Of a stretch of DNA of 64,000 bases, positions 22,593 through 39,461 are shown piece after piece; position 1 is the stretch's first letter, and the number at the start of each line of letters is the position of its first letter. The stretch is from positions 1-64,000 of IMG/VR virus record IMGVR_UViG_3300030333_002778; one strand, written 5' to 3'. This DNA is from a virus. The translations under genes and the position numbers were made by a program. The notes under the pieces are model-generated. The model was not told the DNA's origin, did no database searches, and saw only the letters and a list, made by a program, of their open reading frames with translations.

Positions 22593-22716
22593 AAATAATT
22601 TCTTATAAAAAAAATATTTTTTATAAAATTTTTTTCATGGTGTATATTTAAAGATGCAGACCATTATTGGAATCTCCCCCCGGGCCCAACACCTCAATCA
22701 ACCCCCCGTGGGTCGA

Positions 22717-22748
22717 TTTTATGACCTACTACCATTACATATTATTGC
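22717..22748 (+). promoter_or_regulatory. Phage-specific early promoter candidate 1
   Basis: TTTATGACC-YANK-ACCWTTAC-N8-GC, shared with 23210 and 23621. Confidence 0.6.
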
Positions 22749-22780
22749 GTATAGAGAATCTTACGCGCAACTTGTTGATT

Positions 22781-23095
22781 ATGTCGCAAAGCACAGAATC
22801 TAAACAAGCGCAATACATAACTATTGCTATCTCAGCTATCTTCGGTGGTGATGGAGTCAATACTCCTTCTCCTAAGATGTGCAATGATGGTGTTGAGAGA
22901 TTCATTATGAAGACTCCTGACATCTGTGTACTACCTGAAGATGGTGGCAGACCTCGTATTGAGGAAGGTACTACAGTGTTCCTTGATGTTACTGAAGAAA
23001 ATGCTCAGTGGGTCGAGGTTGTCTGTGACCTGCTTGAGAAAGCAAAAGCTGATGGTCAATCTACTATTGAGATAGATTGGAAGCCAAAGGTGTAG
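22781..23095 (+). CDS. First early protein (probable start MSQSTESK)
   Basis: 104 aa; GC-richer codons than the rest of the window; follows the motif and a hairpin. Confidence 0.65.
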   Translation: MSQSTESKQAQYITIAISAIFGGDGVNTPSPKMCNDGVERFIMKTPDICVLPEDGGRPRIEEGTTVFLDVTEENAQWVEVVCDLLEKAKADGQSTIEIDWKPKV

Positions 23096-23209
23096 TTAGT
23101 GTTGAAGCTGAAGCCTGAGTGTCATTCACGGATATTAGTGCCACTTAGGGGAAGTCTCGCATAGCTTTCTTACTCAATATGCGCCTTTCGGGGTTATCTC
23201 TTTTTTTTA

Positions 23210-23240
23210 TTTATGACCCATGACCTTTACGAAAGTGTGC
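23210..23240 (+). promoter_or_regulatory. Phage-specific early promoter candidate 2
   Basis: TTTATGACCCATGACCTTTACGAAAGTGTGC after a T-tract. Confidence 0.65.
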
Positions 23241-23259
23241 AATCAATAACGTAATAAAA

Positions 23260-23430
23260 ATGAAAAAAACATATGATATTTACAATAACAAAAAGATTAA
23301 ACAGTTAGTAAAGCATTTCGTTGACATGCCTATGACTGAAGATAACTTTGAATTATTAAAGAAATTAGTATTAGATGACTTTGAAGAATATGTTGAGTGG
23401 TCTGATGGTAAACCATATACTAATTTTTAA
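23260..23430 (+). CDS. 56-aa early protein (not in ORF track)
   Basis: MKKTYDIYNNKKIKQLVKHFVDMPMTEDNFELLKKLVLDDFEEYVEWSDGKPYTNF; A-rich leader. Confidence 0.65.
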   Translation: MKKTYDIYNNKKIKQLVKHFVDMPMTEDNFELLKKLVLDDFEEYVEWSDGKPYTNF

Positions 23431-23437
23431 TTAAACC

Positions 23438-23536
23438 GAGATTGAGCTAGTGAAAATGAAGCATATGAAAACCCTATAAAGATAAGATAGAAGGGCTTAT
23501 TTAGTATTCATATGTGGATCAACCTAGCTCTTTCTC
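23438..23536 (+). ncRNA. Rod-like structured RNA candidate
   Basis: GAGCTAG/CTAGCTC closing stem with inner GCATATGAA/TTCATATGT and CCCT/AGGG. Confidence 0.45.
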
Positions 23537-23556
23537 ATGACTTTGTGTTGGTTGGT

Positions 23557-23624
23557 AAGATAATAAAGCTCTGAATAAGAAATGCTACTTAATTTATTTA
23601 TTCTTTATTATCTTTTCTTTTTTT
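23557..23624 (+). terminator. Intrinsic terminator-like hairpin
   Basis: AAGATAATAAAG/CTTTATTATCTT 12-bp stem followed by a T-tract. Confidence 0.5.
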
Positions 23625-23652
23625 ATGACCTAAGACCTTTACGGAAGTAAGC
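23621..23652 (+). promoter_or_regulatory. Phage-specific early promoter candidate 3
   Basis: TTTTATGACCTAAGACCTTTACGGAAGTAAGC. Confidence 0.65.
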
Positions 23653-23659
23653 GATAGTT

Positions 23660-23790
23660 GTTGTAATAATAAACATACTAAAATTATTTAACAGTTGTGA
23701 ACTCCTTGCTTGACTACTTAAAATCAATCAACACTAGAAGTAATGCTACAACAATGAAATTAACTGTAAGTATGTGTTATTACTTACAAC
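23660..23790 (+). ncRNA. Rod-like structured RNA candidate directly after promoter 3
   Basis: GTTGTAATAATAAACATACT pairs imperfectly with AGTATGTGTTATTACTTACAAC; inner ACAGTTG/TAACTGT. Confidence 0.45.
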
Positions 23791-23916
23791 ATTATCGTAC
23801 ACACATGTATTTAACACTTTTATTAACATTTGTATTATACTTATATTAATATATATATAGCGAAAGTATAATACACCAAAGCGAAGAGCACAATGTCATA
23901 ACTGTGCATATTTATT

Positions 23917-24609
23917 ATGGATTTAGAACAATTTTTAAATTCTTTAGAGACTGGTCAATGTGGATTAATCTCTTATCGTAGAAATAATGACTCTGAAGAT
24001 GGTACTAAAAACTTTAGTATAGAATTAGCAGAGAAAATTATTCCTCCTACAAGTAATACTAGTAATGCTATGAATGCAATATCATTATTAACTGTTGGAG
24101 ACAAAAGATTTAGTAGTCGAGGACATCGTAGAGCATGGCCTCCAGTTTCCCCAAAGTTTTTACTTCATTTAGGCGTAAAACAGGATGAAATTGACGCTAT
24201 GGACATTGGAGATGTAACAGAGTTATTCATCAAGAGTCCAAAAGCAATGAATAATCAATATTTAAGATTAAAGATTACTGAATTATTAGACAGTCAATTA
24301 GAAACACATTTTGCTAACTTTAAAAATGGTCAGAAACAAATTGCTTATATGAGAGCAAATCTTGATAAAATGGCTAAAAAGATGGGAGGTAAAGATTCTG
24401 ATTTCTTCATGAGTTTAAATGAAACTACTGGAGCATTAGAAAATGTATTTAGTTTGACTGATGTTGTTGCAGTACCAGAATTAGAACAAGATACTTCATC
24501 TGTTCATACTTGGGCTGAAAGATATGTAGAACAATCAAACATGAACTATAACAAGTCTAAAACTGAAGTTGTAGAGACTGTTGAGGCTGAAGAAGAGCCA
24601 TTTCTATAA
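23917..24609 (+). CDS. Early protein with acidic PFL tail
   Basis: 230 aa; C-terminus VETVEAEEEPFL. Confidence 0.7.
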   Translation: MDLEQFLNSLETGQCGLISYRRNNDSEDGTKNFSIELAEKIIPPTSNTSNAMNAISLLTVGDKRFSSRGHRRAWPPVSPKFLLHLGVKQDEIDAMDIGDVTELFIKSPKAMNNQYLRLKITELLDSQLETHFANFKNGQKQIAYMRANLDKMAKKMGGKDSDFFMSLNETTGALENVFSLTDVVAVPELEQDTSSVHTWAERYVEQSNMNYNKSKTEVVETVEAEEEPFL

Positions 24610-24620
24610 ATCTTAAATAT

Positions 24621-25172
24621 ATTAGAGAGATAGTATTAAATTATCCGTGATTTAGCTTTGCATGCTATCTCTCTAATATTTAATATAGCTATAATAGGTA
24701 CCTTTCTAGAAGGTCCTAATCATCGCGTCTTTATATTAGAGGCATCTATATAAAGTTAAGAACTTAGAGTCTTGTTAAAACGAAAAGAGTCAACTTATGT
24801 TGTATGATGTTAAACTTACTAGAATAAAGATAGGATCTAGTACTATTATAGTCTTTATGGAGATAACTAGTATTAGAGTAAATGACCCTGAAGCGTTTGA
24901 AAGTTAATGAAAGCTGCAGTAATTGTCATTAATGAGTAGTGGAGAAATTTACTCTAATGCTTTAAGTAAACTATACCATAATTTAATAGTATGGGTAGAT
25001 ATAAAGTAGATAAATTCACCTAGGAACTACACACGGTAACAGTGAACTAGGAAAAATAAGTTTGTTTTTATATACGGTAAACACAAACAGAAAGTAAGTG
25101 AGCAATCTATTTAGATCAGGTTTAACATGTCTTGTCCTCTTGATCGGCTTTGTGGGGTTGCTCACTTGTTTT
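24621..25172 (+). ncRNA. Structured ncRNA array A (about 5 closed-stem domains)
   Basis: Closing stems at 24621-24677, 24688-24852, 24870-24960, 24971-24998 and 25091-25172; no substantial ORF. Confidence 0.55.
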
Positions 25173-25201
25173 CACTAATGTTAAATTAAAAAATATAAAA
25201 A

Positions 25202-25318
25202 ATGAAAAGAATAATTTATACATTACTACTAATAGGACTATTCACGAGTTGTGCTTCTGGCAAAATAAACTCGTGTTGGAGTAGTAATGGAAAAACAATA
25301 AATGGTCTGTATAAATAA
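25202..25318 (+). CDS. 38-aa lipoprotein
   Basis: MKRIIYTLLLIGLFTS-CASGKINSCW...; lipobox FTSC. Confidence 0.7.
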   Translation: MKRIIYTLLLIGLFTSCASGKINSCWSSNGKTINGLYK

Positions 25319-25344
25319 ATGTTAAATTAAAAAAAATTACAAAA

Positions 25345-25752
25345 ATGGAAGAATTATTACATCGAGCAGAGATAATTATGGTAGTGCTATCTCTGATCGT
25401 ATTTGTTTTACTACTAATTTGTGCTAAACAACACAGTATAATACAAAATATGCAATCTTCAGCAGAAGAATCTATGCAGTTGTTTCAAGAATATAAAGAT
25501 TTAGTGAGGGAAAGATATGGTCCTTCAACTTACATGCTTAATCGTGACTTTGATCATAAGTATGAAATTGATATATTTGAAGATGATGATGATCCATCTA
25601 TAAAAACAGATGGTAAAGGTGGTGTACTTTATTATAAAACTAGAAAAGATATGTTTATGGATAATCCTTGTACAAAAGAAGAATGGGAAGAATATCATAA
25701 ACATAAAGATTTTCATGATCAATATCAATTTATAATAAAGAACGATGATTGA
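25345..25752 (+). CDS. Membrane-anchored early protein
   Basis: N-terminal TM IIMVVLSLIVFVLLLIC; 135 aa. Confidence 0.7.
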   Translation: MEELLHRAEIIMVVLSLIVFVLLLICAKQHSIIQNMQSSAEESMQLFQEYKDLVRERYGPSTYMLNRDFDHKYEIDIFEDDDDPSIKTDGKGGVLYYKTRKDMFMDNPCTKEEWEEYHKHKDFHDQYQFIIKNDD

Positions 25753-25843
25753 AATATTTATAATAAGCCTATTTGCAGGGATAGCGATAGGCTTATACAT
25801 ATCAAGTCAAATTAATCGTTGGATAGATAAAAATAGTAAATAA
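25745..25843 (+). CDS. 32-aa single-TM micro-protein
   Basis: MIEIFIISLFAGIAIGLYISSQINRWIDKNSK. Confidence 0.6.
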   Translation: MIEIFIISLFAGIAIGLYISSQINRWIDKNSK

Positions 25844-25845
25844 TT

Positions 25846-25935
25846 ATGAAAAGAGATGAAATTCAAACAACAGCATTACTCATAGCAATAGTAATATTCT
25901 ATGTATTAATGCTTTTAATAATGATAACACGATGA
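25846..25935 (+). CDS. 29-aa single-TM micro-protein
   Basis: MKRDEIQTTALLIAIVIFYVLMLLIMITR; ATGA overlap with the next gene. Confidence 0.6.
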   Translation: MKRDEIQTTALLIAIVIFYVLMLLIMITR

Positions 25936-26117
25936 AAGAATCAGCATTTTATAATATAAATATGAAAGGTAAACGTGAACCTAATGAGTCTAGAGAAGAC
26001 TATAAAGCACGTATGAGGGAGGTGAAAGAAAGAACAAAATTACATTTAAAAGGAAGAATAATATGGGACAGTAAAACTCTTGGTACATATATCAAGAAAT
26101 TACATGGCCCATTATGA
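25932..26117 (+). CDS. Small basic phage protein
   Basis: KREPNESREDYKARMR...LKGRIIWDS...GTYIK. Confidence 0.7.
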   Translation: MKESAFYNINMKGKREPNESREDYKARMREVKERTKLHLKGRIIWDSKTLGTYIKKLHGPL

Positions 26118-26121
26118 TGTT

Positions 26122-26744
26122 GTGGGATGGAGTATATCGTAAGAATACTTGAGGATTTTTAGTTGATTGTAATTATTTTTTGTCCTTTCATGCATCCCAC
26201 TTATTAAAGGGGAATTTAGTATAGTGAGTGGCGCGTTGCTATACACATTTTTGCTGACATAATCTTGGATGGTTTCCCCAGTATACAAAGAGGAGTGCTC
26301 GATATAAGACGAGGTTATTCACGCATTCGTACATGTAGTTTTAAAAGTTCCATCTTAATTCAAGCATGTGAGAGCTCCTCTGTGATATAAACAAAGAAAG
26401 ACGGAAGACCGTTAGACTATTATTAATTATAATTGTAACAGGTTATAAACGTTAGTTTAATAAAGAACGTCACTATGTAGAAAGAGGTTATCCATTTATC
26501 TTCGGATATTTCGATGAATGATCATTGTAATTGTGATCTGATAGATCTGTAGTTAATTCTACGGGGAGAATCAGCATAGTTACCATAGACTGTCATGAAG
26601 TCTTTCACTTGTTTATGTATTAGCCAGTGATATGGATATAATAATAGATAAGCCGGCCAGCTTATCGCGGGAAAGTAATCCGTATTGGATGACTTAACAC
26701 AATAGTGTTAAACCCATTATTATTGAAGTATCACTAGGCTGATA
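26122..26744 (+). ncRNA. Structured ncRNA array B (5 abutting closed-stem domains)
   Basis: Closing stems at 26122-26200, 26209-26279, 26282-26389, 26387-26616 and 26618-26744. Confidence 0.6.
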
Positions 26745-26867
26745 CGCTTATAGCAAATACTATTATCATTATGATAATGTATAAATATTTAGTTATGTCT
26801 ATTCTCATTGAATACAATATACATATCTAATGTTACAAGAATGTTAAATTAAAATTAAATAATTATT

Positions 26868-27107
26868 ATGTTTTGGAAAGATGCAGTAAATAATAAATAT
26901 AAACATCTGATGAATTTAGTACCAGATGTTAGAAAGAAAGCTAAACTCCCTTATTCTGTCAATGTATTAGACGAGAAATTGGTAGAGTTAGAAAAAGAAT
27001 ACAACCGATTACAAGAACTAGACGCTAGTGACAAAGATATAACAGAAATAGAAAACCTTATAACAGATTTAAAAAGTTCCATAACTATATTGATTATTGG
27101 AACATAA
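26868..27107 (+). CDS. Hypothetical coiled-coil protein
   Basis: 79 aa; preceded by AATGTTAAATTAAAA leader. Confidence 0.65.
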   Translation: MFWKDAVNNKYKHLMNLVPDVRKKAKLPYSVNVLDEKLVELEKEYNRLQELDASDKDITEIENLITDLKSSITILIIGT

Positions 27108-27119
27108 TTATTATCTTTA
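27090..27119 (+). promoter_or_regulatory. Host-type promoter variant upstream of the replication module
   Basis: TTG-N19-TATCTTTA (one mismatch to TAnnTTTG). Confidence 0.45.
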
Positions 27120-27134
27120 TAAAAACGTTAATAT

Positions 27135-27215
27135 ATGTGGATATTAAAAGTATTAATTGCACTAGGAATCTTATATAGTTTAGGATATTTATTCAACTCG
27201 TGGGAAGAACAATAA
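27135..27215 (+). CDS. 26-aa single-TM micro-protein
   Basis: MWILKVLIALGILYSLGYLFNSWEEQ. Confidence 0.55.
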   Translation: MWILKVLIALGILYSLGYLFNSWEEQ

Positions 27216-27217
27216 AT

Positions 27218-27424
27218 ATGAGTTATATGAAATGGTTATCGACTCTTACCAAGGATGAGGTAGAGGAGATGAGAAATGAACTTCATAAAGCTGTAGCCAA
27301 CAAACAAATCAAATTAAAATATAAGGATACAGAATATACTACTATGAAAATGAGTAGTATAATAAACTATATGGATGATTTCTGGGAATTTAAAAATTGT
27401 GTAAAATTAGAAAAGGAGGATTAA
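27218..27424 (+). CDS. Hypothetical protein (probable start MSYMKW)
   Basis: 68 aa, following the 26-aa ORF. Confidence 0.6.
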   Translation: MSYMKWLSTLTKDEVEEMRNELHKAVANKQIKLKYKDTEYTTMKMSSIINYMDDFWEFKNCVKLEKED

Positions 27425-27440
27425 TTTCCTCCTTTCTTGT
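27409..27440 (+). terminator. Hairpin/terminator before polA
   Basis: AAAGGAGGA-TTAATT-TCCTCCTTT followed by CTTGT. Confidence 0.55.
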
Positions 27441-27482
27441 TAATAGCATGTATAAATATATACAGAAGTAAAAATTTAAATT

Positions 27483-29354
27483 ATGAGTAAAATAGTATTA
27501 ATTACAAATCAAAAACAAATAACGACTCCAAATTGTCCTTTTGAAATAGGAACAATGGAAGAGTGTGTAGATTATTTGAAAGGTCAACAATATATAGCTG
27601 TTGATACTGAAACTGAGGGTAAGGATTTCACCCGCAAAAAAATAGTAATGTTTCAAATAGGAACAAAAGAAATTCAATATGTTATAGATACTAGATATAT
27701 ATCTATAGAACCACTAAGAGATATACTTGAAGATACAGAATATCATGTAAAAATATTTCATAATATTAAGTTTGATTATAAGTTTATTAAATCAAATTAT
27801 AATATTGAAGTAGAGAATATTTATGATACTATGTTAGCTGAAGGTGTATTACATTGTGGTAAAGATAAGCACGGATACAGCCTTAACCGCCTAACACAGA
27901 GGTATTTAGGGGTGACGCTTGACAAAGAAGTTCGTAACAAATTTATAGGATTAGATGGTAAACCATTTACTGCTGAACAAATTTGTTATGGAGCTAAAGA
28001 TGTACAATATTTGATTGAAATTATGGAGACTCAATTAGATCAGATATTTAAACTAGAATTACATTATGTATTAATACTAGAAAATAAAGCAGCTTTAGCT
28101 TTTGCAGACATAGAATATAATGGTCTATGTTTTGATCAAGACTCTTGGCTTAAGAATGCTCAGGTAAATGAAACTGAAGTTACTTTACTCGAACAAGAAT
28201 TGGATCAATGTATTGTTGATAATAATCTAGATGATTTTATTTCTAATCATGTTCAGCTTGATTTCTTTACACCTGTTGAAGATCTTCGTAAAGTCAATGT
28301 TAAGTGGTCATCTCCTATGCAAGTTAAGAATGTAATGGAAAGACATTTAGATACATCACTTGAAAAAGTTAATGCATTTGAATTATCTAAATATAAAGAT
28401 AGACCATTTGTAGGTAAATATCTTAAATATAAAGAAAAACAAAAGATATTAAGTACTTATGGTAAATCTTTTCTTAAATATGTGATGAAAGATGGTAAAG
28501 TCAGAACAAGCTTTTGGCAAATATTAAATACTGGGCGTGTGTCTAGTGGATCTAAAGAGGATCGTAAGCCTAATATGCAGAACATTCCAGCGAGGAATCA
28601 GTTTAGGAATTGCTTTCATGCAAGAGATGGACACAGTATTGTATCTGTTGATTACAGTGGGCAGGAGTTAGCTATTATTGCTTACGGTTCTCAAGATCCT
28701 GTTTGGATTAAATGTAGAAAGAATAATGAAGATCTCCATTCAGTATGTGCTGAATTAGTATTTGGTGATAAATGGCATACAGGTGATAAAAAGAAATTAA
28801 GAAACATGATTAAGACTATTAATTTCGGATTAGCTTATGGTATGAGTAAGTTTAAATTATCTGATACATTAAATATTGATGTAGATGAAGCTGATGAACT
28901 TATAAAGAAATACTTTAGCGCATTTCCTAATATAAAAGCATTTTTAAATAAACTTGGATGGTATGGTGTTATGAATGGTCATATTAAAACTTTTAAACCT
29001 TTTAGAAGAATTAGATGGTTTGAAAATTGGTATGCAGGTATACATAATTCATATAAAGATTTCAAGATTAAAGGAGCGATTGAGCGTGCATCTAAAAATA
29101 CTCCTATTCAAGGTACAGGAGCGGATATGATTAAACAATCTATGATTCTCATAAGAGAAGAGATTAAGAAAAATAATTATCCTTGTTACATGGTAACACA
29201 AGTACATGATGAAATAGGTGTAGAAGTTAAAGATGATTTCGCTGAAGAATGGGCTCATATACAATGTGAGTTAATGAAGAAAGCTGGTAAAATGATTGTT
29301 GATGGATTTGAAATGTCAGTTGATTATACAATAACTAAAAAATGGAGTAAATAA
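27483..29354 (+). CDS. polA: Family A DNA polymerase with 3'-5' exonuclease
   Basis: ExoI VDTETEG, HNIKFD, YGAKD; TGRVSS, motif A VDYSGQEL, motif B KTINFGLAYG, motif C QVHDEI. Confidence 0.96.
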   Translation: MSKIVLITNQKQITTPNCPFEIGTMEECVDYLKGQQYIAVDTETEGKDFTRKKIVMFQIGTKEIQYVIDTRYISIEPLRDILEDTEYHVKIFHNIKFDYKFIKSNYNIEVENIYDTMLAEGVLHCGKDKHGYSLNRLTQRYLGVTLDKEVRNKFIGLDGKPFTAEQICYGAKDVQYLIEIMETQLDQIFKLELHYVLILENKAALAFADIEYNGLCFDQDSWLKNAQVNETEVTLLEQELDQCIVDNNLDDFISNHVQLDFFTPVEDLRKVNVKWSSPMQVKNVMERHLDTSLEKVNAFELSKYKDRPFVGKYLKYKEKQKILSTYGKSFLKYVMKDGKVRTSFWQILNTGRVSSGSKEDRKPNMQNIPARNQFRNCFHARDGHSIVSVDYSGQELAIIAYGSQDPVWIKCRKNNEDLHSVCAELVFGDKWHTGDKKKLRNMIKTINFGLAYGMSKFKLSDTLNIDVDEADELIKKYFSAFPNIKAFLNKLGWYGVMNGHIKTFKPFRRIRWFENWYAGIHNSYKDFKIKGAIERASKNTPIQGTGADMIKQSMILIREEIKKNNYPCYMVTQVHDEIGVEVKDDFAEEWAHIQCELMKKAGKMIVDGFEMSVDYTITKKWSK

Positions 29355-30550
29355 TGAATATATCTAAAATAAAAGATAAAATTCAAAGAAAAGGTCTAAA
29401 TAAATGGTTTAGTAAGCCGTGGTATGGGAGGGGTACTCTACAATATGCTACCGGTTCAGGTAAGACACGTTGTGGTGTTCTGGCCGCGGCTTATTTAGCC
29501 AAAATAACTAATATGGATGCTAGGATATTAATATTAACTCCTACTGAAACTATTAGAGATAGATCATGGAAAGATGAATTTTATAAATGGAACGAAGGTG
29601 ATGTATATGAACAATGTGTTAAATGTGTTTGTATACAAACCGCATATAAATGGATAGGTCACAGTTTTGATCTAGTAATTGCAGATGAAATACATAATTA
29701 TGTATCTCCTGAATATTTTAATTTCTTTGCTAATAACAAATTTGTTAGGATATTAGGATTATCTGCATATATAGATCCAATTAAATTGAGATTATTAAAT
29801 AGTATAGCACCTGTAGTAGAATCTATTTCTACATTAAAAGCACAGGATCTTGGATTGATTAGTCCATTCAAGATATATAATGTCCCGGTTAGATTGACCA
29901 CAGATGAACAAATAGAATATGATAAAGCAGATAAATCATTTAATGGTTTATTTTCCTTTTTTAACAAAGATCTTAAAACTATGTTTGCTTGTATGAATAC
30001 AAATGTATATAGTAATTTTCTTGCTAAAAAAGGCATGGTTCTTGACGCTTCTGTGGCAAGCTATCCGTTTATGTGTAATGCAGCAATGGCTAAGAGAAAG
30101 AATATAATATATAATTCTAAATCTAAAATCAAAGCTGTTAAAAAACTATCAAATATTTTTTCTGAGAAGAAGGCTATTATATTTTCTCAGACTATTGAAT
30201 TTGCTGACAAAGTCACAGATGAATTAGATAATTGTGTAAGTTTTCATAGTAAAATTCCTAAAAAGAAAAGAAATGAAAACTTGAATTTGTTAAAGAGCGG
30301 GAACTCAATAACACGAATATCTACTGCTAAGGCTTTGAACGAAGGTATGAATGTACCTGATATTTCTATGGCAATTATTGCTAGTGGAACAAGCAAGACT
30401 AAAGATATGATTCAGCGTATTGGTAGAGCAGTACGTTGGGAAGCTAATAAAGAAGCTTCAATCTTTCGTCTCTACATTCAAGACAGTCAAGAGGAGAAAT
30501 GGGTTAGCGCTTCTCAGGAAAAATATGAAGTTGAACAATTAAAATTATAA
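29354..30550 (+). CDS. Superfamily 2 helicase (DExH)
   Basis: ATGSGKT, DEIH, GLSA, NEGMNVP, QRIGRAVR. Confidence 0.92.
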   Translation: MNISKIKDKIQRKGLNKWFSKPWYGRGTLQYATGSGKTRCGVLAAAYLAKITNMDARILILTPTETIRDRSWKDEFYKWNEGDVYEQCVKCVCIQTAYKWIGHSFDLVIADEIHNYVSPEYFNFFANNKFVRILGLSAYIDPIKLRLLNSIAPVVESISTLKAQDLGLISPFKIYNVPVRLTTDEQIEYDKADKSFNGLFSFFNKDLKTMFACMNTNVYSNFLAKKGMVLDASVASYPFMCNAAMAKRKNIIYNSKSKIKAVKKLSNIFSEKKAIIFSQTIEFADKVTDELDNCVSFHSKIPKKKRNENLNLLKSGNSITRISTAKALNEGMNVPDISMAIIASGTSKTKDMIQRIGRAVRWEANKEASIFRLYIQDSQEEKWVSASQEKYEVEQLKL

Positions 30551-30551
30551 T

Positions 30552-30989
30552 ATGAAAACAATTCTTGAAGCAAAAGATCATCTGCGCAAGAATTATAAGT
30601 CTGGTACTGGTTGTCCCGTTTGCGGACAACTAGTCAAGGCCTATAAGCGTAAGTTAAATTCAAATATGTGTAAAGCATTAGCAATTATATATAATAGAAC
30701 TTCTGATGGATCTACTATACATGTACAAAATACTTTTTCTGATTTAGGATTAAGAGCAACTGCTATGGATTATACTCATCTAGAGAAATGGGGATTTATA
30801 GAAACAGGAGATGTACATGGTCACTGGAAAATAACTAAAAAAGGTAAAGATTTTCTGGCTAATCAATCTGTAGCTTCTGCATACTGTTTAGTATATGCAG
30901 GTAAGGTATATGAATGGTCTAGTGAAATGATTACCATTGAAGAAGCTTTAACAAAACGATTTAAATTAACAGATGTAATGCAATTATGA
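30552..30989 (+). CDS. Zn-ribbon/winged-HTH protein
   Basis: CPVCGQ and LEKWGFIE...WKITKKGKDFL wing. Confidence 0.6.
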   Translation: MKTILEAKDHLRKNYKSGTGCPVCGQLVKAYKRKLNSNMCKALAIIYNRTSDGSTIHVQNTFSDLGLRATAMDYTHLEKWGFIETGDVHGHWKITKKGKDFLANQSVASAYCLVYAGKVYEWSSEMITIEEALTKRFKLTDVMQL

Positions 30990-31153
30990 AACACGATGAA
31001 ACACGAAATGGAATACCTTGGGATGCGATAGATGATTACTATCAAACTCTCGAAAAAAAGATTATTACAGTGACGTATGTCATTGGTAATCAGACAATTA
31101 CAAGTCATAAAAAAGTAAAAAAATTCGATAAAAAACTTGTCGAAAAACTATAG
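30986..31153 (+). CDS. 55-aa hypothetical protein (not in ORF track)
   Basis: MKHDETRNGIPWDAIDDYYQ...; ATGA overlap with the upstream gene. Confidence 0.55.
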   Translation: MKHDETRNGIPWDAIDDYYQTLEKKIITVTYVIGNQTITSHKKVKKFDKKLVEKL

Positions 31154-31192
31154 TTTTATTATATTTACAAACTTAAAATTTCCTATAATTAT

Positions 31193-31777
31193 ATGAATAT
31201 AGAAATCAATGTTTTTGGTTTAATAAATAATAAATTAACAGCATCACAGTATGTTATGTTAAATTTATTATTTGAAAATAAGAAGGAGTTATTTGTAAAT
31301 TATGTTAATCTATATGGATTTGCAAAAAGAGAACTACAAGGACTGGTGGATCAGGGTTATATATTAACTTGTGATCCACAACAGCCCTTAACTTGTATAA
31401 CTATTGCAAGAGATAAAGTCAGAAAATTATTAGGAATAGAAGAATCTTATTTCACAGAATTATTTGAAAAATATCCTATAAAAGTATACAATGGTAGAAC
31501 AGTGCGAGTATTAAGACCTACAACGCTTTCTTCAAAGGGAGCACAAAATTGTAAAGCTAAATATGATCGTGTTGTAAAGGGTAATTTGCAAAAACATAAA
31601 TTCATTATGGATTGTTTAAATAAAGAAATAGAAACCAGAACAAGAGGTGGAAATTTACAATATATGCATGCATTAGAAACTTATTTAAACAAAAATGCTT
31701 GGGATGCTTATGAGTCCCTATTAGATAGTAATAATAACGTATCTTCAGATACAAAATATGGTGAAGGATTAATATGA
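31193..31777 (+). CDS. Replisome organizer / DnaD-like initiator
   Basis: N-terminal wHTH; FTELFEKYP...YMHALETYLNKNAWD; upstream of DnaB. Confidence 0.65.
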   Translation: MNIEINVFGLINNKLTASQYVMLNLLFENKKELFVNYVNLYGFAKRELQGLVDQGYILTCDPQQPLTCITIARDKVRKLLGIEESYFTELFEKYPIKVYNGRTVRVLRPTTLSSKGAQNCKAKYDRVVKGNLQKHKFIMDCLNKEIETRTRGGNLQYMHALETYLNKNAWDAYESLLDSNNNVSSDTKYGEGLI

Positions 31778-32766
31778 CAAAAATAAATAAACCTAGATTA
31801 CAATATACAAGTATAAAGAAAGCAACATTTGATGCTACTCAGTATATTGAAAAGAGAAGAAAAGGATTAATTAAATCCTTAAGAACTCCATGGTCTAAAT
31901 ATAACCATGTGAGTATGGACGGAATAGAGTGGAACACTATACATACTATAGCGGGTATGTCTGGTAGTGGTAAAACTGCTATTATAAATCAGTTAGAAAC
32001 AGAATTATTTAGATTAAATACAGATGAAAAATTTGCTGTATTATCATTTAATTTTGAAATGCTAGCACGTCAACTAATAAGCAGAAAGTTTTCTAATGCT
32101 TTAAATACAACAACTAGAAAACTACATAGTGGTATAGAAGGATATTCTTTATCTGATGCTGCTTATTATAAAGTTCTTTCTACAGGAAAGGAATTATCTC
32201 AATTACCTATATGGTATGTAGAAATGCCTGGAAATGTAGAGTTAATTAAAAATACAATAGAACATTTTGTTACATCCGCAGAAAATAAAGATCGTGGTGT
32301 AGTAGTTATGTTAGATCATACAATTCTTGTAAGAGGTAAAGCCGGAGAATTAGAACGACTAATATTAGTTGAACTGATGGTTATGGCAAACTCTCTTAAA
32401 AAGAAATATAAGATTGCATTTGTATTTTTATCTCAGCTGAATAGAGAAATAGAACAAGCTGATCGAGTTGTAGAACCATCACAGCAATTTCCTAAAAAGA
32501 AAGATTTATTTGGTGGTGATTCAGTATATATGTTCTCTGATTTAGTAATGGTTTCAATGAATCCTGAGCAATTAGGATTAGAAACTTATGGACCAAAGAG
32601 TTGGCCAACTAAAGATGCATTATTTTGGCATTTTCTAAAAGTAAGAGAGGGTAAACCTTGTATTGCTAAAATGAAAAACGAATTAATGTATAATAGAGTG
32701 GTTGATTATACGGTAGAAAATGTATATGAATTAAATACTAATAAAGATGACAAAAATATGGGATGA
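31774..32766 (+). CDS. dnaB: DnaB-like replicative helicase (C-terminal RecA domain)
   Basis: AGMSGSGKT, FNFEM, LDH, LSQLNR, DLFGGDS, LKVREG. Confidence 0.9.
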   Translation: MTKINKPRLQYTSIKKATFDATQYIEKRRKGLIKSLRTPWSKYNHVSMDGIEWNTIHTIAGMSGSGKTAIINQLETELFRLNTDEKFAVLSFNFEMLARQLISRKFSNALNTTTRKLHSGIEGYSLSDAAYYKVLSTGKELSQLPIWYVEMPGNVELIKNTIEHFVTSAENKDRGVVVMLDHTILVRGKAGELERLILVELMVMANSLKKKYKIAFVFLSQLNREIEQADRVVEPSQQFPKKKDLFGGDSVYMFSDLVMVSMNPEQLGLETYGPKSWPTKDALFWHFLKVREGKPCIAKMKNELMYNRVVDYTVENVYELNTNKDDKNMG

Positions 32767-33118
32767 TAGTAATTTTATATCAACTGGTAATGACTATGAT
32801 ATAGATTATAGCAACTCAGAAGATTATGAGAGTTGTGTAAAAGAACTAGAAGCATTAGCAAGAAATATAGAGGAAGCAAAACGACCTGGATATACTCAAG
32901 CTAATGGAGACGTATTGGCTAATTTCAAGAAAGCGGCAGAATTAGCTGGGACAACACCTATGCAAGCATGGGGTGTATATTTTTATAAACATGTAGCTGC
33001 AATTTTATCTCATGCTAAAGATCCTAATATTCCTCAAGCGGAAGATTTGGATGGTAGATTTGCAGATGCGATGAATTATCTTAAATTGGGTTTTTACCTA
33101 TTAAAACAGAAAAAGTAA
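32747..33118 (+). CDS. All-alpha NTP-pyrophosphatase-like / nucleotide-modification-associated (DUF1599-like) protein
   Basis: KRPGY...D.LANF...KH...D..NYL pattern. Confidence 0.6.
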   Translation: MTKIWDDSNFISTGNDYDIDYSNSEDYESCVKELEALARNIEEAKRPGYTQANGDVLANFKKAAELAGTTPMQAWGVYFYKHVAAILSHAKDPNIPQAEDLDGRFADAMNYLKLGFYLLKQKK

Positions 33119-33119
33119 T

Positions 33120-33791
33120 ATGGCGAATTTAGTTATTATATGTGGAAAGTCAGGATCCGGCAAGTCCACCTCTGGAAGAAATTTGGATCCTAAAACTACT
33201 TTTTGGGTAAATAGTGATCAAAAAGCATTACCATTTAAAGGATGGAAAAAGAATTATTCTAAAGAAAATAAGAATTATTCTAAAGTATCTTCTTTAGTGG
33301 AAACATGTAATATTTTGAAAGCTATACCTGAACGTGCTCCTCACATTAAAACTGTTATTGTTGATACAATTAATCGTATGATGACAGATAAAGTAATGGG
33401 AGAAAGACATGTTAAAGGATTTGAAAAGTGGACTCAATTATCTGGTGGTATATATGATATATTTACTATAATAAATCAAATATTACCTGATGATATTGAT
33501 GTATTTGTATTAGCGCATTCTGAGGAAGGATACAATGATATGGGTGCTCAATATAAGAAAGTAATGACAGCTGGAAAACAACTTGATCGCATTGTTTTAG
33601 AGTCTATGTCAAGCGTTGTTTTATTTACTGAAGTTAAAGCCGATGGTAAAGGAAAGAACGAGTATATGTTTCAAACACAAACTGATGGTGTTTCAACTGC
33701 GAAATCACCTGAAGGAATGTTTGAAGAATATTTAATTCCTAATGATTTATTAGAAATTAAAAAAGCGATGAATAAATATTATAATGAATAA
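33120..33791 (+). CDS. AAA_24 / Sak4-like ATPase
   Basis: GKSGSGKST, VIVDT, LAHSE, TAKSPEGMF; adjacent to SSB. Confidence 0.85.
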   Translation: MANLVIICGKSGSGKSTSGRNLDPKTTFWVNSDQKALPFKGWKKNYSKENKNYSKVSSLVETCNILKAIPERAPHIKTVIVDTINRMMTDKVMGERHVKGFEKWTQLSGGIYDIFTIINQILPDDIDVFVLAHSEEGYNDMGAQYKKVMTAGKQLDRIVLESMSSVVLFTEVKADGKGKNEYMFQTQTDGVSTAKSPEGMFEEYLIPNDLLEIKKAMNKYYNE

Positions 33792-33813
33792 TTAATCGAT
33801 TAAAATTAAATTT

Positions 33814-34371
33814 ATGTATCAAATTAATCAGACTGTAAAGTCAGAGGGATCGTCTACCTCAGTATTCCCGTTAGGTATAACGGAAAATGCAGAAATGACG
33901 AATGTTAGTGTTGACACTGCTAGTAATGGTAATGCATTTCTTAAGTTTGAATTTACTTCAAATGAAGGATCTAAGCTAAATCATTTCGAGTGGCCAATAG
34001 ACACACAAAATGAAGGTTGGGAAAAGAAATTACAATCTCAAATGAAGAGAGTAAAACATATCCTAACTAAATTTATGGAAGAAGATAAAATAATTATTAA
34101 TGCAGATTCTTTTGAAGGATTTGCTAAAGGTGTAATCACTTTACTTGGTAATACTTATGTAGGTAAGAAATTAAGAGTAAAAACTGTTTATAGCTACAAT
34201 AATTATGTATCTATTCCTAAATATGTTCCTTTCGTTGAAACTATGGATATTAATCCAACTAAGTTAAATATAACAAGTTTTGATAAAATGGAAAAAGATG
34301 AAGCTGATAACCCAGCTACATTAAGTTCAACAAGTACAGAAACTAAATCAGATGGTGATTTACCATTCTAA
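33814..34371 (+). CDS. ssb: Single-stranded DNA-binding protein
   Basis: OB-like N-terminus, acidic tail SDGDLPF, follows Sak4-like gene. Confidence 0.75.
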   Translation: MYQINQTVKSEGSSTSVFPLGITENAEMTNVSVDTASNGNAFLKFEFTSNEGSKLNHFEWPIDTQNEGWEKKLQSQMKRVKHILTKFMEEDKIIINADSFEGFAKGVITLLGNTYVGKKLRVKTVYSYNNYVSIPKYVPFVETMDINPTKLNITSFDKMEKDEADNPATLSSTSTETKSDGDLPF

Positions 34372-34407
34372 ATAAAATTTAGTTTCTTTGCGTTAATAAA
34401 ATATATA

Positions 34408-35442
34408 ATGTATAAAATAAATATTTCGTTAACCAAAGAAGCTGTACTTAATAAAATAAGTTCGTACCAAATTTTTAGTTATTATTTGGGCCGTGATTTT
34501 AAATCCGGCATAGTATTGAGTAGTCCCTTTAGACAAGATGATAAACCAAGTTTTTCTTTGTTTACCGATCGTAAAGGGACTATTCGGTATAAAGATTTTG
34601 GTACTGGTGAATCGGGTGATTGTTTTAATTTTATTCAGAAGAAATTCGGAATAGGTTTTTACGATTGCCTTATTCGCATTAATAACGACTTTAAATTGGA
34701 CTTAATGTACAGTGGAATTGGCAGAACAACTGTTCCTTATGACGGTTTCAAGACTGCAATCAAAGAACTAAATTTTAATCCTAAAAAATCTATAAATGTT
34801 AAAGTACAACCTTATACTTTTATAGATGAACATTACTGGAATCAATATGGTATTGACAAGAATTTACTTAAAGTATATAATGTATTTTCTTGTAAATGTG
34901 TTTTCATTGGAGATAAAACTGTAGCTACTTATGTAAATAATAATCCTATTTACGGCTATTTGTTTTATAAAGATGAAGAATACACATGGAAAATCTATCG
35001 TCCTTTATCTATTAACGGATACAAATGGATGAGCAATACCAATAGAACTGTATTTCAAGGATGGGATCAATTACCTAGAAAAGGTGATTTTATTATTATT
35101 ACTAAAGCATTGAAAGATGTTATGGTATTAAGAACATTAGGATTCATAAGTGTTGCATTGCAAAATGAAATCGCAGGTATAAAGGATACTGTTGCTCATG
35201 AATTATATGAGAGATTTAATGATGTATATATATTAAATGATTTTGATTATACTGGCGTAAGAGGCGCTAATAAACTAAAAAAGAAATATGGTTTCAAACC
35301 TATATTTCTTCAATGTTTTAAAACAAGATCAAATGGATTTAAAGATATATCTGATTTCAGAAAATCTCATTCATATGAAGAAAGTAAAAGTTTAATAAAA
35401 AAATTAATAGATAAATGGAAATACGAAGAGAACAACCCGTAG
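34408..35442 (+). CDS. dnaG: DNA primase (crAss-type TOPRIM)
   Basis: SPFRQDDKPSF, YKDFG, ITKALKDVM, NDFDYTG, KDISDF. Confidence 0.9.
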   Translation: MYKINISLTKEAVLNKISSYQIFSYYLGRDFKSGIVLSSPFRQDDKPSFSLFTDRKGTIRYKDFGTGESGDCFNFIQKKFGIGFYDCLIRINNDFKLDLMYSGIGRTTVPYDGFKTAIKELNFNPKKSINVKVQPYTFIDEHYWNQYGIDKNLLKVYNVFSCKCVFIGDKTVATYVNNNPIYGYLFYKDEEYTWKIYRPLSINGYKWMSNTNRTVFQGWDQLPRKGDFIIITKALKDVMVLRTLGFISVALQNEIAGIKDTVAHELYERFNDVYILNDFDYTGVRGANKLKKKYGFKPIFLQCFKTRSNGFKDISDFRKSHSYEESKSLIKKLIDKWKYEENNP

Positions 35443-37895: not shown

Positions 37896-37899
37896 TAAA

Positions 37900-38916
37900 A
37901 TGAAAAATACGTATTTAGTCTGTAAAGTCGATAAAGAAAATGTTCAGATCATTATCGATGGACTCCCTAAAACTCTTTCTAGAAAATATAAAGAAGCTGA
38001 CTCTGTAATTCAGTTAGCTAAAAACTTTAATAAATCTAGAGATGAGAATGAACGAAAAGCCATAATGGGCAAAGTTCAGGAATTGCTAACTCCTGGATAT
38101 CGAATTCAACATAAGACTGACGGTCGATTTGAATTTGACGGTGGTAGGAAAATGTATCTTAAAGGTACTACTGATCCTATACCAAATTTCTTAGCAAAAA
38201 AGTTAATGAAATGGATGGAGGAAGATATTCCTTTAACAGGTTTGATTAACTTTTGGAAGCATCTGTTATTAAATCCGGATAAAGCTGTTAGAAAGCAATT
38301 ATATAGCTTTCTAGAGCATAATGGCCATCCGATAACAGACAAAGGGTATTTTCTCGCATATAAAGCCTGTAAAGTCAAGAAAAAGTACGATAAAAAGACT
38401 GGGGAAGAAATTGTTCAGTTTCAGTACAATGAAGACACTGGTAAAAGAGAAGAGAAATATACTCAATCATTAACTTTTGCACCTTATCATAGTGGCGCTC
38501 ATGGAATGGTAATTAAAGTAGGTCAACCTATTGCAATGCCAAGAGAGGAGTGTGACTCTAATCCGGATCGAACATGTTCTGCAGGTCTTCACGTGGGATC
38601 TATGGAATATGTTCATGATTTTGGATATGGTGATGGTGTAATATTAGAAGTATTAGTTAGTCCACGTAATGTTGTAGCAGTACCGTCTGATTATGACAAT
38701 ACTAAAATGAGATGTTGTGAATATTTTCCTATCGCTATTAGTAATGGTGAAAATGAAGATGTTTATTTAGAATCTGATTATACTGGATTTGATCATGACT
38801 CTATGGTAAAAGACTTAGAAGCTTATGAGAAAGCTAAAAGAAAGCAAATAGCTGATCTTGAGAAAGAATTATCTCAAAGAGATCAGATTGCAGCTGAAAT
38901 TACTTCTAGTAATTAA
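37900..38916 (+). CDS. rIIB: rIIB-like protein
   Basis: FWKHLLLNP, ITDKGYFLAYK, CSAGLHVG, VSPRNVVAVP.DY...KMRCCEY. Confidence 0.88.
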   Translation: MKNTYLVCKVDKENVQIIIDGLPKTLSRKYKEADSVIQLAKNFNKSRDENERKAIMGKVQELLTPGYRIQHKTDGRFEFDGGRKMYLKGTTDPIPNFLAKKLMKWMEEDIPLTGLINFWKHLLLNPDKAVRKQLYSFLEHNGHPITDKGYFLAYKACKVKKKYDKKTGEEIVQFQYNEDTGKREEKYTQSLTFAPYHSGAHGMVIKVGQPIAMPREECDSNPDRTCSAGLHVGSMEYVHDFGYGDGVILEVLVSPRNVVAVPSDYDNTKMRCCEYFPIAISNGENEDVYLESDYTGFDHDSMVKDLEAYEKAKRKQIADLEKELSQRDQIAAEITSSN

Positions 38917-38922
38917 GTTAAC

Positions 38923-38958
38923 AGGGAGGGGGTCTTAACGGGCTCCCTATTTCCCTAA
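38923..38958 (+). terminator. Intergenic GC hairpin
   Basis: GGGAGGGGGTC-TTAACG-GGCTCCCTATTTCCC between rIIB and the next gene. Confidence 0.45.
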
Positions 38959-38969
38959 AATTTTATAAT

Positions 38970-39461
38970 ATGGATAAAGTACAAATCGTTATTCCTAAAT
39001 TTATTACACATATTGCTAAAACTAAAAATAAATATGTGAAAATAAACGGTCAAAAATTATTTACTGGAATGAATCATCATTTACGAGCTCTTGTAGTTCG
39101 TAGAATGCACACATATATTCAACAATATATACCATCTGTTTTAGAATTAGATGAATTATTACCTATGAAAGTAAAGTTGTATGTTTATACAGCTATTAAT
39201 CATGGTGATATTAGAATGTATAAAGGTGAATTAAGATGGCGTGAACCTAAAAAAGATTATATACCCCGATGGGATGTAGATAATCTATGGATTTGGATTA
39301 AATGTTTTCAAGATACGTTAGTAGAAATGGGTAAAATAGAAGATGATAATGTAACTCATATTCCAAATTCTGGTGAAATAGAGTTTATACCAGTTAAAGA
39401 TTTTAAAGATCGTAAATTAATTTTCGAATTAACAAAATATAAAAAAGCAAATGAAAATTGA
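38970..39461 (+). CDS. RusA-like Holliday junction resolvase
   Basis: WDVDNL...KCFQDTL...IEDDN catalytic Asp pattern. Confidence 0.78.
   Translation: MDKVQIVIPKFITHIAKTKNKYVKINGQKLFTGMNHHLRALVVRRMHTYIQQYIPSVLELDELLPMKVKLYVYTAINHGDIRMYKGELRWREPKKDYIPRWDVDNLWIWIKCFQDTLVEMGKIEDDNVTHIPNSGEIEFIPVKDFKDRKLIFELTKYKKANEN

What the first reader, a model, noticed from the sequence alone, without database searches (positions are those of the whole stretch)
24621..25172. ncRNA array A: tandem self-closing RNA domains in the early region
Seen: about 550 nt without a substantial ORF, tiled by long closing helices: ATTAGAGAGATAGTAT/ATGCTATCTCTCTAAT (16 bp), GCTATAATAG/CTATTATAGT enclosing a ~165-nt multibranch with a GGCA tetraloop hairpin, GTATTAGAGTAAAT/ATTTACTCTAATGC (14 bp) and TAAGTGAGCAATCT/GGGTTGCTCACTTG. 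Mismatches are mostly G:U-compatible on the + strand, which points to selection at the RNA level. The domains share architecture but not sequence. Inference: a polycistronic cassette of distinct small RNAs released by cleavage of the closing stems, an RNA analogue of an early anti-defence gene cluster.
Basis: partly seen in the sequence, partly recalled or inferred. Interest (0 to 1): 0.75.

Follow-up and report, generated by a model that had tools for sequence, protein, structure and literature searches.

The report
Hairpin-punctuated spacer, marine crAss-like phage
This gene-free 590 bases among the early genes of an uncultured marine crAss-like phage is not a packed array of four RNA genes: it holds three strong plus-strand stem-loops at the borders of swappable segments, most likely punctuation of the early transcript, with transcription and function untested.

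Summary
The window is a marine Crassvirales genome of 89,460 nt. Positions 24610-25201 have no credible long ORF under any genetic code tried and match no Rfam family.

Three of the four reported closing helices are real and far better than shuffles on the + strand:
- H1, 24619-24679, z -6.5.
- H3, 24869-24961, z -3.2.
- H4, 25090-25173, z -5.0, with a U-tract.
- A mini hairpin at 25059-25088 is also significant.

The "165-nt multibranch" (24684-24868, z -0.5) and the 24965-25058 spacer fold no better than chance, so the "tiling" is overstated.

Ocean strains delete exactly these segments, and the breakpoints sit at hairpin bases. No diverged homologue of the region could be fetched, so covariation is untestable. 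However, H1 and H3 share a stem base, and a hairpin in a related phage shares it too, directly after an early gene.

Best reading (0.5): cassette-border stem-loops that end, process or stabilise the early transcript, PeSL-like. Stable early ncRNAs, as reported for phage phi14:2, remain possible. An anti-defence role has no support.

This scan has noted the same kind of swappable hairpin modules on other marine crAss-like genomes.

The parts
23917..24609 (+). Upstream 230-aa early gene of unknown function. Its stop codon lies 9 nt before H1.
   Evidence: ORF list. No Pfam or PHROG family. Homologues at 28-30% identity in L002, L004, L009, L013 and L005.
24619..24679 (+). H1: stem-loop with an 18-bp outer stem plus a 7-bp inner stem. 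The stem base is AUAUUAGAG/CUCUAAUAU, followed by a UUUAA flank.
   Evidence: z -6.45 on +, -4.86 on -. The single-sequence covariance model finds L005:2843-2962, which has the same base and flank and a compensated inner stem.
24682..24872 (.). D2: 191-nt presence/absence segment.
   Evidence: Fold z -0.54. Skipped and replaced by 8 nt in contigs of runs X4 and X9, from two studies. A second deletion, 24700-24865, occurs in X4.
24797..24907 (+). 36-codon ORF inside D2 that runs into the H3 loop. A possible micro-gene or a chance ORF.
   Evidence: Codon-usage score 0.48, reached by 1.3% of ORFs in composition-matched simulated sequence. The only relative, P0015, is identical for 23 aa and then diverges, giving a junction at about 24866.
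24869..24961 (+). H3: 15-bp closing stem around a 63-nt loop. Its base GUAUUAGAG/CUCUAAUGC and 3' UUUAA flank are paralogous to those of H1.
   Evidence: (z -3.20).
24962..25058 (+). Unstructured spacer.
   Evidence: Fold z -0.27.
25059..25088 (+). Mini hairpin, absent from one ocean strain.
   Evidence: Fold z -3.69. X3 contig skips 25060-25094.
25090..25173 (+). H4: 19-bp G.U-containing stem with an inner hairpin. It ends in UUGUUUUC, so it is terminator-like.
   Evidence: z -5.03 on +, -2.70 on -; terminator-like site 25152-25165 plus T-run.
25177..25201 (+). Gene-start motif AATGTTAAATTAAAAAA, first of three copies (25177, 25318, 26840). Each copy lies 10-25 nt before an ATG.
   Evidence: The copy before the 79-aa gene is conserved in L002-L006.
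25202..25318 (+). 38-aa lipoprotein-like gene, the next cassette downstream.
   Evidence: The sequence starts MKRII...FTSC.

Best explanation
Array A is a non-coding intercistronic spacer, or 3' UTR, of the rightward early transcription unit of a marine crAss-like phage. It sits in a hypervariable stretch of small genes.

Its functional parts are three independent + strand RNA stem-loops at segment borders:
- H1 lies directly after the 230-aa gene.
- H3 is its paralogue.
- H4 carries a U-tract just before the start motif of the next gene.

They most likely form or protect RNA 3' ends. The mechanism would be termination, and/or cutting of the long double-stranded stems by a host RNase III-type enzyme, leaving protective terminal hairpins. 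This would insulate neighbouring early cassettes from one another.

The stretches between the hairpins (D2 and the 24962-25058 spacer) are dispensable filler or residues of cassettes. The hairpin bases are where strains break and rejoin the region.

Shown: the structure, its strand bias, the modular indels, and the shared stem base.
Inferred: transcription, termination or processing, and any role in recombination.
For: 1. The hairpins are strong and better on the + strand, which is the coding strand of all genes from 22.7 to 41 kb. The material between them is not structured.

2. Position fits punctuation.
- H1 starts 9 nt after a stop codon.
- H4 ends 29 nt before the next ATG and has a T-run.
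- Relatives carry a strong + strand hairpin right after the homologous gene: L013 z -6.7 and L009 z -4.6, much weaker on the - strand.

3. There is a hairpin type.
- H1 and H3 share the stem base UAUUAGAG/CUCUAAU and the 3' flank UUUAA.
- TATTAGAG occurs three times on the + strand within 260 nt, where about 0.03 is expected.
- L005 and L006 (DNA polymerase 77% identical) have AUAUUAG-UGGGG...CCCCA-CUAAUAUUUAA directly after the stop of an 85-aa early gene, so the base is kept and the inner stem is compensated.
- The homologous L003 element keeps the loop blocks but is closed by a different helix, GGTAGGA/TCCTACC.

4. The units are dispensable and swappable in nature.
- Deletions of 24682-24872 (two studies), 24700-24865, 25060-25094 and 24975-25341 were seen in ocean contigs.
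- Five of eight breakpoints lie within 5 nt of a hairpin base, where about one is expected (hand count).
- P0015 shows another junction at about 24866.

5. Host-type RNase III exists in Bacteroidota (control hit). Processing of early polycistronic RNA at long hairpins is established for phage T7 (textbook knowledge). Stem-loop and promoter cassettes that mediate indels in hyperplastic regions are described for T4-type phages (PMC2839356, PMC4122927).
Against: - No RNA data cover the region, so transcription, 3' ends and cleavage are all unshown.
- H1 and H3 have long stems with 25- and 63-nt loops and no U-run, unlike classical intrinsic terminators.
- Three or four consecutive hairpins over 560 nt are more than one gene end needs.
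- The closest relatives with the homologous gene, L002 and L004, have no significant hairpin after it (z -0.1).
- The L005 hairpin folds equally well on both strands, so a DNA-level role is not excluded.
- In phi14:2, intergenic early regions are themselves abundant stable RNAs, which would favour an RNA product over mere punctuation.
Confidence: 0.5

Rival explanations
1. Stable early non-coding RNAs. The hairpin units, or the whole stretch, accumulate as RNA products with a function of their own, such as decoys, protein sponges or regulators, like the unexplained abundant early intergenic RNAs of phi14:2.
For: - phi14:2, a cultured marine crAss-like phage, transcribes two long ORF-free early intergenic regions more highly than most genes, and these RNAs persist late (bioRxiv 10.1101/2020.03.07.982082).
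- All three long gaps of this early arm are structured on the + strand (z -3.5, -4.7, -6.1).
- The neighbouring gap holds a DNA-conserved element with compensatory pairs.
Against: - No sequence similarity to the phi14:2 regions, and the phi14:2 g004-g005 region tested is not significantly structured (z -0.32).
- Array A is absent from all fetched relatives.
- Half of it is unstructured, and its units are individually lost in natural strains.
- No own promoter was recognised.
- No Rfam match.
Confidence: 0.22
2. Evolutionary debris. The region is what cassette turnover left behind: orphaned gene-end hairpins whose genes were deleted, plus decaying filler, with no present function beyond H1 and H4 serving the two flanking genes.
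For: - Relatives have genes where this phage has spacer; L002 has ORFs of 102, 93, 48 and 112 aa after the homologous gene.
- D2 and the spacer are unstructured.
- Every unit is missing in some strain.
- The region is confined to near-identical strains.
- The two short ORFs keep gene-like codon usage, as a recently dead gene would.
Against: - No remnant similarity to the relatives' genes.
- The sequence has persisted nearly unchanged (about 97-99% identity in the laid contigs) in ocean samples of 2014-2025 from many studies.
- Phage genomes purge useless DNA quickly, and this genome is otherwise tightly packed.
Confidence: 0.15
3. DNA-level element. The inverted repeats act in DNA as cassette recombination sites, comparable to integron attC hairpins with conserved inverse cores after each cassette, or as a replication or packaging signal.
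For: - The stem base is conserved and the interior is variable.
- Hairpin length is 60-120 nt, and the position is directly after ORFs.
- Breakpoints lie at hairpin bases.
- The L005 hairpin is strand-symmetric.
Against: - No tyrosine or serine recombinase was found in the complete 89-kb genome.
- H1, H3 and H4 fold clearly better as + strand RNA.
- The GC-skew minimum and strand switch lie at 22.3-22.7 kb, 2 kb away.
- Loops of 25-63 nt disfavour cruciform extrusion (general knowledge).
Confidence: 0.06

Closest known systems
Early long intergenic non-coding RNAs of Cellulophaga crAss-like phage phi14:2 (g004-g005 and g005-g006 junctions; bioRxiv 10.1101/2020.03.07.982082)
   Same: Marine Bacteroidota-type crAss-like phage. 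Long ORF-free stretches among small early genes on the rightward arm. Function unknown.
   Different: - No sequence similarity, and the flanking genes are not homologous.
- The phi14:2 stretch tested folds no better than shuffles.
- Expression is shown there and untested here.
PeSL (promoter-early stem-loop) cassettes of T4-type phages (PMC2839356, PMC4122927)
   Same: - Stem-loops and repeated gene-start motifs between small non-essential genes of a hyperplastic region.
- Closely related strains differ by whole-segment insertions, deletions and replacements whose ends lie at these motifs.
   Different: - Unrelated phage order.
- No sigma-70-like promoter abuts the hairpins.
- The hairpins are long with large loops, and only H1 and H3 resemble each other.
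- Terminator activity and mini-circles are untested.
RNase III processing hairpins between the early genes of phage T7 (textbook knowledge)
   Same: Long imperfect hairpins on the transcribed strand between early cistrons. After cutting they would leave a protective 3' hairpin.
   Different: No cleavage data. The T7 sites have a characteristic internal loop. Several hairpins here are not adjacent to any gene.
Intrinsic (Rho-independent) terminators
   Same: H4 has a G+C-containing stem followed by a U-rich run, just upstream of the next gene.
   Different: H1 and H3 lack a U-run. All three have stems and loops far larger than typical terminators.
Large structured phage-associated RNAs in Rfam (for example ROOL, GOLLD)
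   Same: Size class of about 600 nt, in a phage.
   Different: No match to any Rfam 15 family at the gathering threshold or at E<=10 beyond chance-level miRNA-like hairpin hits. This is not one integrated fold.

Membership tests
Any Rfam 15 RNA family | Score at or above the family's gathering threshold | tested here: not met
   0 matches in the whole window. The best sub-threshold hits were 17-21 bits against thresholds of 34-93. No tRNA or tmRNA in the region.
PeSL-type regulatory cassette | Lies in a hyperplastic region where close relatives differ by segment indels that end at the motif | tested here: met
   Deletions 24682-24872, 24700-24865, 25060-25094 and 24975-25341 in ocean contigs. 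A junction at about 24866 in P0015. Five of eight breakpoints lie within 5 nt of a hairpin base.
PeSL-type regulatory cassette | Composite of a strong sigma-70-like early promoter and a stem-loop | tested here: not met
   No 10-of-12 or better promoter-like site abuts H1, H3 or H4. No Bacteroidota -7 motif with a -33 partner. Only H4 is followed by a repeated gene-start motif.
PeSL-type regulatory cassette | Many near-identical copies in the genome that allow homologous exchange | tested here: inconclusive
   H1 and H3 share only 8-9 nt of stem base plus flank, and H4 is unrelated. The start motif has three copies.
PeSL-type regulatory cassette | The stem-loop terminates transcription | not testable with these tools
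   Needs a reporter assay or Term-seq.
phi14:2-type early intergenic lncRNA | ORF-free stretch of 0.5 kb or more in the early arm of a crAss-like phage | tested here: met
   Crassvirales head, portal and terminase genes. Gap list. No ORF under four genetic codes.
phi14:2-type early intergenic lncRNA | High early transcription that persists late in infection | not testable with these tools
phi14:2-type early intergenic lncRNA | Sequence or structural homology to the phi14:2 regions | tested here: not met
   blastn and nhmmer found nothing beyond AT-rich noise. Covariance models R1-R3 gave no hit in L028.
RNase III substrate | About two turns (roughly 20 bp) of near-continuous double-stranded RNA | tested here: met
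   H1 has 18+7 bp, and H4 has 19 bp plus an inner 7 bp. H3, with only 15 bp, is marginal.
RNase III substrate | Site-specific cleavage by RNase III | not testable with these tools
   The phage has no RNase III gene of its own. Host enzyme cleavage would need an assay.
Intrinsic terminator | Short G+C-rich stem with a small loop, followed at once by a U-run | tested here: inconclusive
   Only H4 has a T-run. H1 and H3 are followed by AUUUAA or CUUUAA, and their loops are 25-63 nt.
Integron attC-like recombination site | A cognate site-specific recombinase encoded by the element | tested here: not met
   No PF00589 or PF00239 match in the complete genome.

The most novel reading that the evidence does not exclude
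The stem-loop units are cut out of the early transcript and persist as small stable RNAs with functions of their own, for example as decoys for host defence or RNA-binding proteins. Their conserved stem bases would double as the joints by which crAss-like phages trade such RNA cassettes. That would make this an RNA counterpart of the accessory-gene islands of other phages.
Probability: 0.12. Interest if true: 0.75.

Novelty: new variant of a known kind. Interest (0 to 1): 0.38.

Why it matters
CrAss-like phages are among the most abundant viruses in guts and oceans, yet their early gene expression is poorly understood. The only cultured marine example makes abundant early non-coding RNAs of unknown role.

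This locus adds a concrete anatomy to that picture: strong plus-strand stem-loops with a shared base at the borders of segments that wild strains gain and lose. If these are RNA-end or processing signals, they explain how early cassettes are insulated and shuffled in this phage order. If they are stable RNAs, they are candidates for a new class of phage effectors.

As it stands the region is strain-specific and unproven, so it is a modest lead rather than a discovery.

Tried and rejected
**Family and coding checks**
- Rfam at gathering threshold and at E<=10 gave nothing meaningful. ARAGORN found no tRNA or tmRNA in the region.
- Hidden ORFs under code 4, TAG=Q and TAA=Q: none.

**Searches for a homologous region**
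- DNA search of 50,697 phage records: no match.
- Of the 25 IMG/VR relatives anchored on the DNA polymerase, none has a DNA homologue of 24610-25201.
- IMG/VR scans with the 230-aa and 135-aa neighbour proteins, and with a family alignment, returned nothing new.
- Exact stem patterns of H1, H3 and H4 in IMG/VR gave one chance hit, L027.
- Two JGI metagenome scans returned only contigs sharing a short peptide patch.
The variant contigs behind P0001-P0013 and P0015 could therefore not be fetched, and no strain alignment or covariation test of H1, H3 and H4 was possible.
- Single-sequence covariance models of H1, H3 and H4 gave only the L005/L006 hit used above, plus a marginal L038 hit that was not pursued.

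**Expression**
- The one RNA run laid (X20) gave only 35-150-nt fragments of low identity outside the region. It says nothing about transcription.

**Hypotheses dropped**
- D2 as a MITE: its 9-nt inverted ends lie 6 and 19 nt inside the deletion ends, and a second deletion has other ends. Rejected.
- Origin of replication: the skew minimum is 2 kb away. Unlikely.
- Array A as a remnant of the relatives' 85/93-aa membrane-protein gene: no tblastn trace.
- A phage-encoded recombinase or RNase III: none.
- Homology of the 230-aa gene to phi14:2 g004: none.

**Weak or inconclusive**
- The joint 25200/25324 between two copies of the start motif (depth 2, side 22) and the joint 23869/26613 (side 21) are too weak to use.
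- The 36-aa ORF has gene-like codon usage but only one relative, which diverges after residue 23. Coding status is left open.

Full report
**Setting**

The window is the first 64 kb of an 89,460-nt IMG/VR virus record rated complete, with 31% G+C. Its major head protein, portal and large terminase match PHROGs, and the best phage relatives of the head protein are crAss-like phages of Bacteroides, Flavobacterium and Cellulophaga at 41-44% identity. Runs that hold the sequence are marine or seawater metagenomes. It is therefore an uncultured marine member of Crassvirales.

Genes run leftward up to 22300 and rightward from about 22660 to 41023. The cumulative GC skew has its minimum at that switch. 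The finding lies 2 kb into the rightward arm, among small ORFan genes and 2.3 kb upstream of the DNA polymerase gene at 27483.

**The observation**

Positions 24610-25201 separate the stop of a 230-aa ORF from the ATG of a 38-aa lipoprotein-like ORF. No frame opens under code 4, TAG=Q or TAA=Q. The genome is otherwise tightly packed: only 18 gaps of 45 nt or more exist, and three of the five longest lie in 23.4-26.9 kb.

The inverted-repeat scan confirms three of the four reported closing helices. Fold z-scores against dinucleotide shuffles were as follows:

| Element | Coordinates | z, + strand | z, - strand |
|---|---|---|---|
| H1 | 24619-24679 | -6.45 | -4.86 |
| H3 | 24869-24961 | -3.20 | -2.66 |
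| H4 | 25090-25173 | -5.03 | -2.70 |
| Mini hairpin | 25059-25088 | -3.69 | not run |
| D2 ("165-nt multibranch") | 24684-24868 | -0.54 | not run |
| Spacer | 24965-25058 | -0.27 | not run |

The whole stretch scores -4.69 on the + strand and -2.40 on the - strand. Against the genome itself, the 150-nt windows holding H1 and H4 rank 2nd and 4th of 1191 for GC-adjusted + strand stability.

So the picture is three strong hairpins plus a small one, separated by about 280 nt that are not detectably structured. It is not a wall-to-wall tiling.

The stem mismatches are indeed U.G on the + strand. However, that strand is G-rich and C-poor, so mutation bias alone favours them.

**Known families**

Rfam gives nothing at gathering thresholds, and only chance-level miRNA-like hairpin hits at E<=10. 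There is no tRNA-like element.

**Relatives**

Twenty-five IMG/VR loci anchored on the DNA polymerase (26-79% identity) were fetched. None has DNA similar to 24610-25201, while the next gap downstream is 77-85% identical in the five closest loci.

The phage collection, further IMG/VR scans and two JGI metagenome scans added nothing. A covariation test inside array A was therefore impossible.

**Natural strains**

The stretch occurs in about 20 public marine runs from 13 studies, dated 2014-2025. Contigs of three DNA runs laid on the window are 97-99% identical where they match, but they differ by whole-segment changes:

- 24682-24872 (D2) is replaced by 8 nt in two studies.
- 24700-24865 is skipped in another contig.
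- 25060-25094, the mini hairpin, is skipped in X3.
- 24975-25341 is skipped or replaced in X4.

Five of the eight breakpoints fall within 5 nt of a hairpin base, where about one would be expected (hand count). Independently, the only relative of the 36-aa ORF inside D2 (P0015) is identical for 23 residues and then diverges, which marks a further junction at about 24866, at the foot of H3.

The units are thus individually dispensable, and their borders are the hairpin bases.

**A hairpin type**

H1 and H3 share the stem base UAUUAGAG/CUCUAAU and the 3' flank UUUAA. TATTAGAG occurs three times on the + strand within 260 nt, where about 0.03 is expected.

A covariance model built from H1 alone finds one element elsewhere, L005:2843-2962 (the same in L006). 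It begins 3 nt after the stop of an 85-aa early gene. Its stem base and 3' flank are the same as in H1, but its inner stem is UGGGG/CCCCA instead of AGAGA/UCUCU.

The homologous element of L003 keeps the loop blocks but is closed by an unrelated helix, GGTAGGA/TCCTACC. L005 also has a homologue of the 230-aa gene (29% identity, E 3e-11).

In the more distant L009 and L013, the homologous gene is followed at once by a strong G.U-rich + strand hairpin, with z -4.6 and -6.7 on + against -2.7 and -2.3 on -. L002 and L004 have none (z -0.1).

Long closing stems right after small early genes therefore recur in this phage group, and they are maintained through sequence change.

**Context**

All three long gaps of the early arm are structured on the + strand (z -3.5, -4.7, -6.1).

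A T-tract followed by TTTATGACC-N5-GACCTTTACG occurs three times (22717, 23209, 23621) before early genes, and nowhere else in the genome. The last copy is the nearest candidate start for a transcript running through the 230-aa gene into array A.

AATGTTAAATTAAAAAA occurs three times (25177, 25318, 26840), each just before an ATG. The third copy is conserved in relatives. H4, with its U-run, sits directly before the first copy.

No promoter-like site was recognised inside array A. The phage encodes no recognisable recombinase or RNase III.

**Coding potential**

The two short ORFs that overlap D2 (31 and 36 codons) have gene-like codon usage, reached by 1.3% of ORFs in composition-matched random sequence. 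The first starts with TTG inside H1. The second has no conserved C-terminus. They may be chance, micro-genes or relics of a lost gene. No similarity to the relatives' genes at this position was found.

**Literature**

In the cultured marine crAss-like phage phi14:2, two long early intergenic regions are transcribed more highly than most genes and persist late, with function unknown. Those regions share no sequence with this window, their flanking gene is unrelated, and the one tested is not significantly structured.

In T4-type phages, small promoter/stem-loop cassettes (PeSLs) in hyperplastic regions act as terminators and mediate segment indels between close strains.

**Interpretation**

The best-supported reading (0.5) is that array A is an intercistronic spacer or 3' UTR of the early rightward transcript. 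It is punctuated by stem-loops that form, process or protect RNA ends at cassette borders: H1 after the 230-aa gene, its paralogue H3, and terminator-like H4 before the next gene start. The material in between is dispensable. This works like PeSLs and like the T7 RNase III sites, but it is not a member of either: there is no adjoining sigma-70-type promoter, the hairpins have a different form, and no activity data exist.

The rivals are stable early ncRNAs as in phi14:2 (0.22), debris of cassette turnover (0.15) and a DNA-level recombination or replication element (0.06). The specific claim of an anti-defence RNA cluster has no evidence for or against it.

**Earlier notes of this scan**

Follow-up notes on other marine crAss-like genomes describe the same kind of swappable + strand hairpin modules at the head of the early arm. 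One links to the conserved element in the neighbouring gap of this genome. They agree with the reading here but are not independent evidence.

**Verdict**

This is a real, strongly structured but only partly structured, strain-specific non-coding stretch. It is a new variant of known regulatory-hairpin and early-ncRNA themes in a little-studied phage order. Interest is moderate until RNA ends or strain covariation are measured.

Noticed in passing
window 26560-26870 (within the 26118-26867 gap): A non-coding element 77-85% identical in DNA to L002-L006, although the adjacent 79-aa gene is only about 50% identical in protein. The consensus fold has a long closing helix (GCCAGTGATAT.../...GTATCACTAGGC) and 7 pairs with compensatory changes among 5 sequences.
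   Followed up: partly
window 22717-22738, 23209-23230, 23621-23642: Three co-oriented copies of a T-tract followed by TTTATGACC-N5-GACCTTTACG. Each lies before an early gene, and the motif occurs nowhere else in the 89-kb genome. The exact pattern was not found in the fetched relatives. A hairpin plus T-run (23557-23614) directly precedes the third copy. Candidate early promoters.
   Followed up: partly
window 25177, 25318, 26840: AATGTTAAATTAAAAAA-like motif 10-25 nt before three ATGs. These are the only three copies in the genome. The copy before the 79-aa gene is conserved in L002-L006.
   Followed up: partly
window 25628-25682 (inside the 135-aa ORF): A 55-nt patch encoding ...YYKTRKDMFMDNPCTKEE... 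is 89-95% identical in DNA to otherwise unrelated viral contigs (L029-L032); metagenome contigs L033-L038 match the same peptide patch at protein level only. It also draws many partial contig matches in ocean runs.
   Followed up: partly
window 23441-23535 versus L005:3070-3128 and L003:3840-3895: A closed module (GAGCTAG...CTAGCTC with shared GTGAAAATGAAGC) lies upstream of the 230-aa gene here, but downstream of the homologous gene in relatives. Structured modules are reordered between related phages. This was judged by eye from the sequences.
   Followed up: partly
window 40501-40650: The most stable + strand 150-nt window of the whole genome (-52.4 kcal/mol, z -6.84) lies inside the predicted 193-aa ORF 40442-41023, at the end of the rightward arm.
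   Followed up: partly
window 22667-23095: A 142-codon TTG-start ORF with 42-43% G+C in a 31% G+C genome. It is preceded by C-rich runs and overlaps the first copy of the promoter-like motif. Its coding status is doubtful.
   Followed up: no
G000:C1:70118-70531 (outside the window): A 414-nt gap without an ORF on the leftward arm, one of the five longest gaps in the genome.
   Followed up: no
window 41373-56834: A single 5153-codon ORF on the minus strand, followed by ORFs of 1201 and 1035 codons.
   Followed up: no
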